Source: Escherichia coli (GTDB taxonomy: Bacteria; Pseudomonadota; Gammaproteobacteria; Enterobacterales; Enterobacteriaceae). From it: a stretch of 64,000 nt of DNA. Positions 1 to 3,000 of the stretch are shown piece by piece. A program made the position numbers. The number at the start of each line of letters is the position of its first letter. The stretch's first letter is position 1. The stretch lies in the NCBI RefSeq assembly GCF_036507355.1, contig NZ_AP027877.1. The stretch is one strand, 5' to 3'.

Positions 1-3000
1 GCGTTCCGCGGTGTGCAGTTAACATACGAGCACACCATGCTTCAGCTCTATCCTTCGCCGTTTGCCACCTGTGATTTTATGGTTCGTTTCCCGGAATGGC
101 TGCCGCTGGATAAATGGGTGCCGCAAGTGTTTGTCGCCTCTGGCGATTGCGCCGAGCGTCAGTGGGATTTTTTAGGTCTGGAAATGCCGCAGTGGCTGCT
201 CGGTATTTTTATCGCTTACCTGATTGTCGCGGTGCTGGTGGTGATTTCCCAGCCGTTTAAAGCGAAAAAACGTGACCTGTTCGGTCGCTAATCCATTCGG
301 CGCTCCTGCGGGAGCGCTTTTTTCCTGCCGCTGTGTTTATTTGACCCGCAGTAAATCAGAACTTCGCGTTGTATAACGTGGTGAAAGCATGGCTCGCTTC
401 ATCTGCCATTGTTGCTGGATCCCCTGCCCGGCAAAATAGAGTGTTCCTCTGCCCTCTTTAGCATTCAGTGTATCCATTACCGTCATCAATTGCTCACTCC
501 CGGGGCGCGGTGCGTTGTCATCGAATAAATTGAGCTGCGCGACTCCCTGACTGAAGAAATCCCCCAGCATCACGCCCGCTTTTTGGTAGCGATGGCCCGC
601 TTGCCAGATGGCATCCAGAGATCGCGTAGCGGCGTTAATGATATCCCTGCTGTCCTGAGTGGGCGTCAGCAGTTTTACCGACGCGCTATTGCCGTAATAA
701 GGTTCATTGAGCGCAAATGGTGACGTCTTAATAAACGTGGAGATAAACCGACAATATTGATGCTCGCTGCGAAGTTTTTCCGCCGCCCGGGCAGCGTAAC
801 TACAAATGGCCTGCCGCATCGACGTATAATCCGTGATGCGTTCACCAAACGAGCGGGAACAGATAATTTCCTGCTTTGTCGGTGCAAATTCTTCCAGTTG
901 CAAACAGGGTTCACCGCGCAGTTCACGCACCGTTCTTTCGAGCACGACATTAAAATGTTTACGGATAAACCGGATATCTGTATCCGCCAAATCGAGAACG
1001 GTTTTGATCCCCATCGCGTCCAGTTTTTTGCTGATCCGCCGTCCAATCCCCCAGACGTCATCCACGGGGAGAGCAGACATTTATTTACGCTGGCGTTCCA
1101 GATTTGATAAATCCCCCCCCCACCCGTCTGCCGCTGCCATTTTTTTGCCGCATGATTGGCAAGCTTAGCCAGCATTTTGGTCTGGGCGATCCCCACACCA
1201 ACAGTAAGATGGGTACGTTGTAGCACCGTTGCGCGAATTTCTCTGCCAAAGTCAGTCAGATCGCGACAATTACGCACACCTGTCAGATCGCAGAATGCCT
1301 CATCAATACTGTAAATCTCGACGCGGGGCGATAGTTCTTCCAGCGTCGACATCACCCGATTGCTCATGTCTGCGTAAAGCTCATAATTGCTGCTAAAGCA
1401 AACCACGCCACAGCGACGAAACAGATCTTTTTGTTTGAACCAGGGATCGCCCATTTTAACGCCAAGCGCCTTTGCCTCAGCGTTTCGGGCGATAACGCAA
1501 CCGTCATTATTCGATAGCACAACCACCGGTTTACCCCATAAATCAGGGCGAAACACCGTCTCACAGCTGGCATAAAACGCGTTTACATCACAGAGGGCAA
1601 ACATCAGCGCATCGCCTTAACGACGTGGATCACCACACCAAAGACATCCAGCGTATCTTCACTACTGATGGTAATGGGCGAGTACGCGCTGTTCATGGGA
1701 ATAAGCTGTACCGTCGGGCGTAGTTGCAATTTTTTCACCGTAAACTCGCCGTCAACAGCAGCGATGACAATATCACCATGGCTGGCGGTAATAGCGCTAT
1801 CGACAATCAGTAAATCACCGTCACTAATTCCACCATCAATCATAGAATCACCACTTGCTTTGACGAAGTAAGTCGCGCTGGGATGCTGGATCAACAGTTG
1901 ATTCAGATCGATGCGCTGTTCAACGTAATCTGCGGCCGGTGAAGGAAAGCCACACTGAACAAGATCGCTAAATAGCGGAAAAGTCACAATTTCGCGGAGA
2001 TCCGCAGGCTTGATAAACAACATAATAATCTGCCTGAAGTTATACTGTTTTTATATACAGTAGTCTGTTCTTGCCAGCAGATCAATACTGATTCAGGCTA
2101 TCAATATTTGTCGCTGCATAGACTGCTGATTTTTCGTTCTCTTATCCTGTGCTCACGCGGCCTTCTGGCGACGACGCTCATCCAGCAGAAATGAAAAATA
2201 TCACCCGGCTAAAAAATAGAATAGAAGCATTCGCCATAATGACATTATGGCATTGTTTGATATTTATCATATTAATAGAAATAAAGACATTGACGCATCT
2301 CTCCCGGCTAACTATGAATTAGATGAAGTAAAATTTATTAATAGTTGTAAAACAGGAGTTTCATTACAATTTATATATTTAAAGAGGCGAATGATTATGA
2401 CTGAAATCGTTGCAAATAAAACGGTAGAGGTAGTTAAAAACGCAATCGAAACCGCAGATGGAGCATTGGATCTTTATAATAAATATCTCGATCAGGTCAT
2501 CCCCTGGCAGACCTTTGATGAAACCATAAAAGAGTTAAGTCGCTTTAAACAGGAGTATTCACAGGCAGCCTCCGTTTTAGTTGGCGATATTAAAACCTTA
2601 CTTATGGATAGCCAGGATAAGTATTTTGAAGCAACCCAAACAGTGTATGAATGGTGTGGTGTTGCGACGCAATTGCTCGCAGCGTATATTTTGCTATTTG
2701 ATGAGTACAATGAGAAGAAAGCATCCGCCCAGAAAGACATTCTCATTAAGGTACTGGATGACGGCATCACGAAGCTGAATGAAGCGCAAAAATCCCTGCT
2801 GGTAAGCTCACAAAGTTTCAACAACGCTTCCGGGAAACTGCTGGCGTTAGATAGCCAGTTACCCAATGATTTTTCAGAAAAAAGCAGCTATTTCTAGTCA
2901 CAGGTAGATAAAATCAGGAAGGAAGCGTATGCCGGTGCCGCAGCCGGTGTCGTCGCCGGTCCATTTGGTTTAATCATTTCCTATTCTATTGCTGCGGGCG

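What the first reader, a model, noticed from the sequence alone, without database searches (positions are those of the whole stretch)
337..1604. umuC is split by a frameshift in a C9 homopolymer and an in-frame TAA, while umuD and its LexA box look intact
The N-terminal about 161 codons of a UmuC-type Y-family polymerase read from 1604 and lose frame at the C9 run (1113-1121). The remaining 247 codons resume in a different frame at ATG 1078-1080, and the codon just upstream in that frame is TAA (1081-1083). So even a one-base slip in the homopolymer would not restore a full-length protein. This predicts a Pol V-deficient strain, or expression of the C-terminal fragment alone. The TAA directly abutting the ATG could allow reinitiation, but that is speculation.
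Basis: partly seen in the sequence, partly recalled or inferred. Interest (0 to 1): 0.55.

Follow-up and report, generated by a model that had tools for sequence, protein, structure and literature searches.

The report
Doubly broken umuC pseudogene at hotspot
In this IS-rich E. coli/Shigella-group strain, the catalytic gene of the error-prone SOS polymerase Pol V (umuC) really is dead, killed by a one-base loss in a self-made run of nine Gs plus a stop codon 33 bases later; this is an ordinary pseudogene, but it sits at a G-rich spot that has been hit independently in several other lineages.

Summary
umuC (337-1604, minus strand) loses frame in a G9 run (C9 on the + strand, 1113-1121). It also has TAA (1081-1083) in place of Leu175, directly before Met176 (1078-1080). 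umuD and its LexA box are identical to K-12.

The lesion is not a homopolymer sequencing error. Three independent assemblies of the same lineage carry exactly the same junction.

Against intact alleles, the tract GGGTGGGGTGGTGG has become GGGT+G9 (one T lost, one T→G). G10 would restore the frame but stops at TAA after 174 codons, so slippage cannot rescue the gene. The C-terminal ORF has no Shine-Dalgarno sequence, and ribosomes cross the TAA out of frame, so reinitiation is unlikely.

The best reading is a fixed, non-revertible Pol V-null pseudogene in a lineage with IS1/IS3 insertions and a neighbouring hlyE nonsense mutation.

The added value is context. The same 14-nt tract is a recurrent hotspot: in-frame G7, G8 and G11 forms, frameshifted G10+TGG (on at least four backgrounds) and G13 forms, and an ISEc20 insertion in S. 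sonnei.

Interest is low to moderate. This is a new allele of a known kind.

The parts
337..1604 (-). umuC pseudogene (whole former 422-codon gene, now 1268 nt)
   Evidence: 99.6% identical to intact umuC of E. coli YZMc3-1 and O157 apart from the lesions; tblastn splits it into two frames
1119..1604 (-). native-frame N-terminal part, codons 1-162 (palm and fingers; Pfam IMS domain 5-150; catalytic D6, D101, E102 present)
1173..1175 (-). codon 144, ACG->ATG (T144M), C->T at 1174
   Evidence: among 5,426 complete E. coli genomes an exact match to the surrounding 107 nt was listed only for K-12 lab strain ME8067
1113..1121 (-). G9 homopolymer (C9 on the + strand): derived from GGGG-T-GG-T-GG by loss of one T and one T->G; causes the -1 frameshift
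675..1112 (-). out-of-frame read-through of the N-terminal ORF (146 aberrant codons, stop at 675-677), overlapping the C-terminal ORF
1081..1083 (-). TAA replacing Leu175 (TTA; T->A at 1082). The same base change destroys the -1-frame stop AAT-TAA-TG
337..1080 (-). C-terminal ORF, Met176-Lys422 (HhH/thumb, little finger, QLNLF clamp motif, DUF4113); no Shine-Dalgarno sequence upstream
1081..1140 (-). 19-codon mini-ORF (ATG 1140-1138 to TAA 1083-1081) in the C-terminal frame. In frameshift-only alleles elsewhere, the same ATG heads a 267-aa ORF; here the TAA closes it
1604..2023 (-). umuD, intact, 139 aa, identical to K-12 UmuD; its stop overlaps the umuC ATG
2043..2062 (-). LexA (SOS) box TACTGTATATAAAAACAGTA of the umuDC promoter, identical to K-12

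Best explanation
This is a fixed, non-revertible loss-of-function allele (pseudogene) of umuC in a rare IS-bearing E. coli/Shigella-group lineage. Shown: the G-rich tract at codons 161-165 (GGGTGGGGTGGTGG) has lost its last two Ts and become GGGT+G9, 13 nt instead of 14. Translation therefore leaves the native frame after Gly162, at the palm-thumb boundary of the polymerase. A second lesion 33 nt downstream turns Leu175 into TAA, so even a +1 slip to G10 yields only a 174-residue stub. Inferred mechanism of origin: T->G changes flanked by G runs (transient-misalignment or 'dislocation' errors) fuse short G blocks into a long run. The run then slips by one base. After inactivation (or before it; the order is unknown), the TAA and T144M changes were added. 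Inferred consequence: on SOS induction the cell still makes UmuD/UmuD'. It makes only a catalytic-core stub with a 146-residue nonsense tail, and little or no C-terminal fragment. So it should lack Pol V translesion synthesis and UV/SOS-induced mutagenesis, unless a plasmid homologue is present elsewhere in the genome.
For: Lesions and coordinates. G10 still stops at TAA. The same allele occurs in three independent assemblies, two of them differing elsewhere. The break lies between Pfam IMS (5-150) and IMS_HHH (172-200), and aligns to the Dpo4 palm-thumb junction. There is no Shine-Dalgarno sequence, the TAA is out of the translated frame, and the mRNA pairing is stronger than in wild type. 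Stepwise homopolymerisation is seen directly in other lineages: in-frame G7 (O103:H2 12009); in-frame G8 (Sd197, O26:H11 11368); in-frame G11+TGG and frameshifted G10+TGG with otherwise identical umuDC; G13 in the same lineage. PGAP annotates the G10+TGG copy in a complete genome as 'frameshifted'. Genome-decay context in the window: hlyE nonsense, two IS1 copies, one IS3-family element, and deletion of ymgF-iraM.
Against: No phenotype or expression data exist, so Pol V deficiency is inferred. The rest of the genome was not seen, and a plasmid impCAB/mucAB/rumAB-type operon could compensate. Only 2 of about 57 conserved genes in the window are point-mutation pseudogenes, so decay is not pervasive. 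All four derived umuC changes lie within 93 bp (P about 0.0015 to 0.015 under uniform scatter). That fits simple sequential neutral decay poorly, and points to a local mutational process or a single complex event that I could not resolve. The independent assemblies may be closely related isolates of one clone.
Confidence: 0.85

Rival explanations
1. Sequencing or assembly artefact: the C9/G9 run is a homopolymer miscall and the gene is intact in the organism.
For: G/C homopolymers are error-prone for several platforms. Long-read S. sonnei assemblies of this very region disagree with each other on G-run length. No complete RefSeq E. coli genome has this allele.
Against: The identical G9+TAA+T144M junction occurs in an NCBI draft and two Logan assemblies of separate SRA runs, two of which differ from the window elsewhere. 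The TAA and T144M are substitutions, not homopolymer length calls. Even with G10 the gene is stopped.
Confidence: 0.02
2. A working phase-variable (contingency) switch: the G run toggles Pol V on and off by slippage in this lineage.
For: The G9 run in a coding region is long enough to slip. In another lineage, G11 (in frame, 16 contigs) and G10 (frameshift) coexist on identical umuDC backgrounds, and the G10+TGG frameshift recurs on at least four backgrounds.
Against: In the window lineage, restoring the frame gives a 174-aa product because of the TAA. All three fetched assemblies have G9. None of the predicted G7/G8/G10/G11 products of this lineage is on record. The in-frame G14 form is not on record in the other lineage either.
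Confidence: 0.03
3. A functional split gene: the N-terminal stub and the C-terminal 247-aa fragment are both made (by reinitiation at TAA-ATG, or after ribosomal or transcriptional slippage on the G9 run) and either reassemble into an active polymerase or the C-terminal fragment acts alone, for example by binding UmuD', RecA or the beta clamp.
For: The break falls exactly at a domain boundary (palm | thumb). TAA abuts ATG176. The C-terminal ORF keeps the QLNLF clamp motif and DUF4113, and is identical in protein sequence to the C-terminal part of intact alleles.
Against: In the G9 frame the TAA is not read, so nothing terminates next to the ATG. There is no Shine-Dalgarno sequence, and the start region is predicted to be base-paired. 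Conservation of the C-terminal sequence is uninformative, because the lineage has no private substitutions anywhere else in umuDC either. No split UmuC is known to be active (my knowledge; not tested).
Confidence: 0.04
4. Origin variant: the four clustered changes (T144M, T loss, T->G, TTA->TAA) arose together in one error-prone repair or gap-filling patch, and not one by one.
For: All four lie within 93 bp, and there is no other lineage-specific change in 1.7 kb of umuDC against 18 comparators (P about 0.0015).
Against: No intermediate or donor sequence was found either way. The tract changes are explained by a hotspot seen in other lineages. T144M recurs alone in lab strain ME8067, and a codon 175-176 lesion recurs in a K-12-background run. 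So local recurrent mutability could also produce the cluster.
Confidence: 0.3
5. Selected loss: inactivating Pol V was advantageous in a host-restricted, Shigella-like lifestyle, and was not neutral decay.
For: Convergent disruption: S. sonnei umuC::ISEc20 is very widespread (the C-terminal fragment is indexed in 3,188 blocks of the collection). Sd197 umuC carries a 9-bp in-frame deletion. Several E. coli lineages carry frameshifts.
Against: Each E. coli frameshift allele is rare (1 of 5,426 complete genomes). The shared hotspot and the poly-C/G target preference of ISEc20 explain the recurrence without any selection. The functional effect of the Sd197 deletion is unknown.
Confidence: 0.15

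Closest known systems
E. coli K-12 umuDC operon (DNA polymerase V, UmuD'2C; Y-family)
   Same: Same locus (hlyE-umuD-umuC-dsbB), the same LexA box and promoter-proximal 98 nt, identical UmuD, the same 1-nt umuD/umuC overlap, and umuC 99.6% identical at DNA level to its nearest intact alleles.
   Different: umuC is interrupted by a -1 frameshift after codon 162 and by TAA at codon 175, and also carries T144M. No full-length 422-aa product is possible.
Frameshifted umuC alleles G10+TGG and G13 in other E. coli (e.g. UMEA 3292-1, AUSMDU00014361)
   Same: The same 14-nt tract is converted towards a pure G run and shortened to 13 nt, giving a -1 frameshift at the same codons.
   Different: Those alleles also converted the first T (the window keeps GGGT). 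They keep TTA at codon 175, so they terminate at the -1-frame TAA (174 aa), retain a 267-aa downstream ORF, and could be restored by a +1 slip. An in-frame G11 sibling exists. The window allele is locked by the TAA.
Shigella sonnei umuC::ISEc20
   Same: umuC is split at the same G tract into an N-terminal stub and the same 247-aa C-terminal ORF, with umuD intact.
   Different: The cause is a 1.44-kb IS110-family insertion, not point mutation. Codon 175 is still TTA, and the umuDC background differs by about 22 SNPs in 2 kb.
Poly-G/C contingency loci of Neisseria, Campylobacter, Haemophilus and hypervirulent Klebsiella (rmpA)
   Same: A G/C homopolymer inside a coding sequence whose length decides the reading frame. 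Length polymorphism (G11/G10/G13) is seen among close relatives in one E. coli lineage.
   Different: Here the tract is not ancestral but was created recently by substitutions. There is no evidence of reversible switching. In the window lineage a second stop makes the OFF state permanent.

Membership tests
UmuC / DNA polymerase V catalytic subunit (Y-family) | N-terminal IMS catalytic domain with the conserved carboxylates (D6, D101, E102) | tested here: met
   Codons 1-162 are 99.4% identical to intact UmuC. D6 and the SIDE motif (99-102) are present. Pfam IMS covers 5-150 in the intact orthologue.
UmuC / DNA polymerase V catalytic subunit (Y-family) | One continuous ORF of about 422 codons joining palm/fingers, thumb, little finger and the C-terminal interaction region | tested here: not met
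   Frameshift at the G9 run plus TAA at codon 175. The ORFs are 309 aa (163 native) and 247 aa.
UmuC / DNA polymerase V catalytic subunit (Y-family) | Operon with umuD under a LexA box, with umuD stop/umuC start overlap | tested here: met
   Identical to K-12.
UmuC / DNA polymerase V catalytic subunit (Y-family) | Translesion synthesis and SOS mutagenesis activity | not testable with these tools
   Needs UV/MMS mutagenesis assays.
Pseudogene (fixed loss-of-function allele) | Disrupted relative to intact orthologues at the same locus | tested here: met
   5,366 of 5,426 complete E. coli genomes have a match covering at least 80% of the umuDC query. The nearest ones are intact at 422 aa.
Pseudogene (fixed loss-of-function allele) | Lesion reproducible in independent sequence data of the lineage | tested here: met
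   L014, L015 and L016 have the identical junction.
Pseudogene (fixed loss-of-function allele) | More than one independent inactivating lesion (not rescuable by a single reversion) | tested here: met
   Frameshift plus nonsense; G10 gives 174 aa.
Homopolymer-tract phase-variable (contingency) gene | Mononucleotide run of at least 7-8 in the coding region | tested here: met
   G9 at 1113-1121.
Homopolymer-tract phase-variable (contingency) gene | Tract-length polymorphism among close relatives | tested here: not met
   All three fetched assemblies of the window lineage have G9. It is met only in a different lineage (G11/G10/G13).
Homopolymer-tract phase-variable (contingency) gene | An alternative tract length restores a full-length product | tested here: not met
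   G10 and G7 end at the TAA; G8 and G11 end at an earlier stop; G12 stays out of frame.
Translationally coupled split gene / termination-reinitiation | The upstream ORF terminates at or next to the downstream start in the frame actually translated, usually with a Shine-Dalgarno-like element | tested here: not met
   In the G9 frame the junction reads GTA AAT AAA TGT with no stop. The best Shine-Dalgarno match is 3 of 6.

The most novel reading that the evidence does not exclude
The umuC tract GGGTGGGGTGGTGG is an evolvable 'proto-homopolymer'. T->G dislocation errors repeatedly fuse it into G8-G13 runs, and these then slip. In some E. coli lineages, Pol V (a mutagenesis enzyme) would therefore be under de facto reversible ON/OFF control (G11 <-> G10). 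The same runs become landing sites for the poly-C/G-seeking IS110-family element ISEc20. The window allele would then be a switch that was later locked OFF by a second mutation.
Probability: 0.12. Interest if true: 0.6.

Novelty: new member of a known kind. Interest (0 to 1): 0.3.

Why it matters
For the strain itself, it predicts a Pol V-null, poorly UV/SOS-mutable phenotype with UmuD still made. That is relevant to how fast such a lineage can acquire damage-induced mutations, including resistance mutations. More generally, the comparison shows that natural loss of Pol V in E. coli and Shigella is concentrated at one 14-nt G-rich tract and happens by three routes: substitution-driven homopolymerisation, slippage, and a tract-seeking IS. 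This gives a simple sequence marker for screening genomes for Pol V status, and a natural example of how a homopolymer is born inside a gene. None of this is conceptually new. It is a tidy instance of known mutational mechanisms.

Tried and rejected
1. An exact scan of GTDB species-representative genomes for the mutant junction found nothing. The lineage is not a species representative.
2. I first read the presence of the 247-aa C-terminal ORF on at least 1,000 contigs as proof that the TAA allele is widespread. Rejected: those are S. sonnei genomes with an ISEc20 insertion and a wild-type TTA.
3. I suspected the window was S. dysenteriae Sd197, because the YcgN annotation matched exactly. Rejected: Sd197 has IS1 copies in place of hlyE and a different, 419-aa umuC.
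4. Exact look-ups of hypothetical intermediates of this lineage (M144 with G7/G8/G10/G11; TAA only; full-length T144M, V164G and G10 forms) were all absent. The order of events therefore stays unknown.
5. The 'TAA-only' 174-aa hit on 51 contigs turned out to be mostly wild-type contigs that simply end at that codon. Only one run, in a K-12 background (L030), has a real lesion there.
6. Gene conversion from a diverged copy: no E. coli chromosome or plasmid in the complete-genome set matches the 121-nt junction better than 98.4%. PLSDB and phage collections were not searched.
7. Template-switch correction towards the nearby CTCTCCCC arm would not produce T->G changes, so I rejected it by inspection.
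8. Literature searches found no description of umuC tract variation, of umuC::ISEc20, or of this allele. Hawkey et al. 2020 (PMC7373316) lists ISEc20 among the S. sonnei IS elements but does not mention umuC in the main text.
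Full report
**What is there.** The first 3.3 kb of the window is the E. coli-type locus dsbB / umuC / umuD / hlyE, with umuDC on the minus strand. Reading the minus strand:
- umuD runs 2023-1604 and is intact.
- The umuC ATG (1604-1602) overlaps the umuD stop, as in K-12.
- A run of nine G occupies 1121-1113 (C9 on the + strand).
- TAA lies at 1083-1081 and ATG at 1080-1078.
- The native umuC stop is at 339-337.

The ORF from 1604 is 309 codons long, but only its first 162 codons are UmuC. 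The ORF at 337-1080 (247 codons) is UmuC 176-422.

**What changed relative to intact genes.** 5,366 of 5,426 complete E. coli genomes carry a match to most of this umuDC stretch. The nearest (YZMc3-1, O157:H7 strains) are 99.6% identical and one base longer. Alignments show three differences:
- The wild-type tract GGGTGGGGTGGTGG (codons 161-165) is GGGT+G9 here, through loss of one T and one T->G.
- TTA (Leu175) is TAA.
- ACG (Thr144) is ATG.

Against 18 other umuDC sequences, the window has no other lineage-specific site. Rebuilding the gene with other run lengths shows that none gives a full-length protein. G10 or G7 stop at the TAA after 174 or 173 codons. G8 and G11 stop earlier, and G12 stays out of frame. 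One further detail: in the wild-type context a -1 shift terminates at AAT-TAA-TG, overlapping Met176. The T->A at 1082 moves that TAA from the -1 frame into frame 0, which is why the shifted ORF runs on for 146 codons.

**Is it real?** Yes. The neighbouring hlyE carries a nonsense codon, and the resulting 166-aa fragment is rare (7 contigs). It led to three independent assemblies: an NCBI draft and two Logan assemblies of different SRA runs. All three have exactly the same G9, TAA and T144M. One is identical to the window over 8,897 nt. The others differ by a SNP or in where the contig breaks. A 4.64-Mb chromosome labelled E. coli (protein BED22797.1) also carries the fragment. A one-off homopolymer miscall is excluded.

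The lineage is not in the RefSeq complete-genome set. The best identities are 98.9-99.6% across the window. It is not S. sonnei (about 22 SNPs per 2 kb) and it is not S. dysenteriae Sd197.

**Consequences for the protein.** Pfam places the catalytic IMS domain at residues 5-150, the HhH/thumb motif at 172-200, the little finger at 245-360 and DUF4113 at 371-421. In the alignment with Dpo4, the break aligns to the region that published Dpo4 domain limits (palm to residue 166, thumb from 167; my recollection of the literature, not a tool result) place at the palm-thumb junction. The N-terminal product keeps D6/D101/E102 but lacks the thumb, the little finger and the UmuD'/RecA/clamp-binding part. 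The C-terminal ORF lacks the active site. No UmuC structure has been solved.

Independent translation of the C-terminal ORF is unlikely, for three reasons:
- There is no Shine-Dalgarno sequence.
- The ATG region is predicted to pair with the G9 run.
- Ribosomes coming from the umuC start cross the junction in the -1 frame, where there is no stop.

Frameshift-only alleles elsewhere retain a 267-aa ORF from an ATG at window-equivalent 1140-1138. In the window the TAA closes that ORF after 19 codons. I therefore infer a Pol V-null allele with UmuD still expressed from an unaltered SOS promoter. The phenotype itself was not testable here.

**How it arose.** The tract is a hotspot. The forms I verified at DNA level are these:

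| Tract form | Frame | Where seen |
|---|---|---|
| GGGTGGGGTGGTGG (wild type) | in frame | K-12, O157:H7, YZMc3-1 |
| G7 (middle T->G, V163G) | in frame | O103:H2 12009 |
| G8 (first T->G, synonymous) | in frame | Sd197, O26:H11 11368 |
| G11+TGG | in frame | 16 contigs (L038) |
| G10+TGG | frameshift | 198 contigs, incl. UMEA 3292-1 and complete genome AUSMDU00014361 (PGAP: 'frameshifted') |
| G13 | frameshift | about 12 contigs (L028, L029) |
| GGGT+G9 | frameshift | window lineage |

- About 188 complete genomes differ from the G10+TGG query by a single gap. I infer that they carry the G8 allele, having verified only O26:H11 11368.
- The G10+TGG allele sits on at least four umuDC backgrounds that differ by 24-40 SNPs in 3.4 kb, so it has arisen repeatedly.
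- The G11 form is identical to one G10 form everywhere else in umuDC. That is direct evidence for one-base slippage once the run is long.
- Every base substitution in the tract is T->G between G blocks. That is the pattern expected from transient-misalignment ('dislocation') errors. This is my inference from established mutational mechanisms, not a test.

The window allele fits the same path: conversion or loss of the second and third T gives G9.

In S. sonnei the same tract is split by a 1.44-kb IS110-family element annotated as ISEc20. Ten other insertions of that element all sit in C/G runs, with the same junction pattern. So the tract is also a preferred IS target.

**What remains unexplained.** The four derived changes span only 93 bp (P about 0.0015; 0.015 if the two tract changes count as one event). 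Either one error-prone synthesis patch made them together, or this segment is locally hypermutable. In favour of the second reading, T144M recurs alone in K-12 lab strain ME8067, and a K-12-background run has a two-base lesion at codons 175-176. No intermediates of the window lineage were found, so neither the order nor the number of events can be settled here.

**Context.** Of about 57 conserved genes in the window, only umuC and the adjacent hlyE (single stop at codon 167, 2895-2897) are broken by point mutation. Separately, the following are present:
- two identical inverted IS1 copies (12263-13030 and 17090-17857);
- an IS3-family transposase gene;
- a truncated ycgH;
- loss of ymgF through iraM.

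The lineage is therefore IS-active and has started to shed accessory functions, but it is not heavily decayed in this region.

**Comparison with what is known, and novelty.** Functionally and by locus this is the K-12 umuDC operon with a dead umuC. It fails the defining 'continuous ORF' feature of a working UmuC. It meets every criterion I could test for a pseudogene. It resembles poly-G contingency loci in having a coding homopolymer, but it fails two of their defining features: no length polymorphism within the lineage, and no run length that restores the product. Searches of the open literature found no prior description of this allele, of umuC tract variation, or of umuC::ISEc20.

**Verdict.** This is a real but ordinary double-hit pseudogene, a new allele of a known kind. 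The added value is that it marks a recurrent mutational and IS hotspot through which Pol V is lost in nature. Interest is 0.3. The most novel reading still open is a semi-reversible Pol V switch in lineages with G10/G11 tracts; I give it about 12%.

Noticed in passing
window 1112-1125; loci L003, L017, L023-L029, L038, L049, L050: The umuC tract GGGTGGGGTGGTGG is a recurrent hotspot. In-frame G7, G8 and G11+TGG forms and frameshifted G10+TGG and G13 forms occur in unrelated lineages. The G10+TGG frameshift occurs on at least four different backgrounds. The G11 and G10 forms share an otherwise identical umuDC.
   Followed up: yes
L004-L013 (S. sonnei umuC); L039-L048: In S. sonnei, umuC is split at the same tract by ISEc20 (IS110 family, 1.44 kb). 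Ten other ISEc20 insertions all lie in poly-C/G runs, with the junction C-run|G-TTACTTT...AATAGG-GGCAC|C-run, so the element appears to target such runs. At one shared site, two genomes differ GGCCCC versus GGCACC, the same kind of run-extending substitution.
   Followed up: partly
window 2397-3308 (+), stop at 2895-2897: hlyE (clyA), next to umuD, is also a pseudogene, with a single in-frame stop at codon 167. The 166-aa fragment is rare (7 contigs) and served as a lineage marker.
   Followed up: yes
window 12263-17857: Two 768-nt IS1 copies, 100% identical and inverted (12263-13030 and 17090-17857), bracket a segment holding ymgJ-ymgD, the C-terminal half of ycgH and an IS3-family transposase ORF (15661-16473). 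Compared with E. coli YDC107, ymgF, pdeG, ymgC, ariR, ymgA, ycgZ, bluF, bluR, ycgX, ymgL and iraM are absent.
   Followed up: partly
L031-L037 (wild-type umuC contigs from unrelated samples): Seven contigs from different runs all end at exactly ...CGTAAATT, the base equivalent to window 1082. The reason is unknown (a graph branch at a variable site, or an insertion).
   Followed up: no
L021 (E. coli K-12 lab strain ME8067) and L030 (Logan ERR8651014, K-12 background): ME8067 UmuC differs from MG1655 only by T144M, the same change as in the window. ERR8651014 has AAATTAATG->AAATAAAG at codons 175-176 (TAA plus loss of ATG176). Both are coincident with window changes, in unrelated laboratory backgrounds.
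   Followed up: partly
L017 (S. dysenteriae Sd197 umuC): Sd197 umuC is 419 aa: a 9-bp in-frame deletion removes K25-P26-V27, and it also carries I139S and the G8 tract. hlyE is replaced by IS1 copies. The functional state is unknown.
   Followed up: no
window about 5092-5248 (-): A 52-codon hypothetical gene annotated in E. coli YDC107 and O157 between ycgL and pliG aligns to the window in two frames (q1-17 and q14-52). That suggests a frameshift in this small ORF.
   Followed up: no
window 18423-20492: Between icd and rluE, the window lacks the STM2901-family and DUF1493 genes present in YDC107. The first 7 codons of rluE do not align, and identity over the rest is 94.6%. This is a variable junction next to icd.
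   Followed up: no
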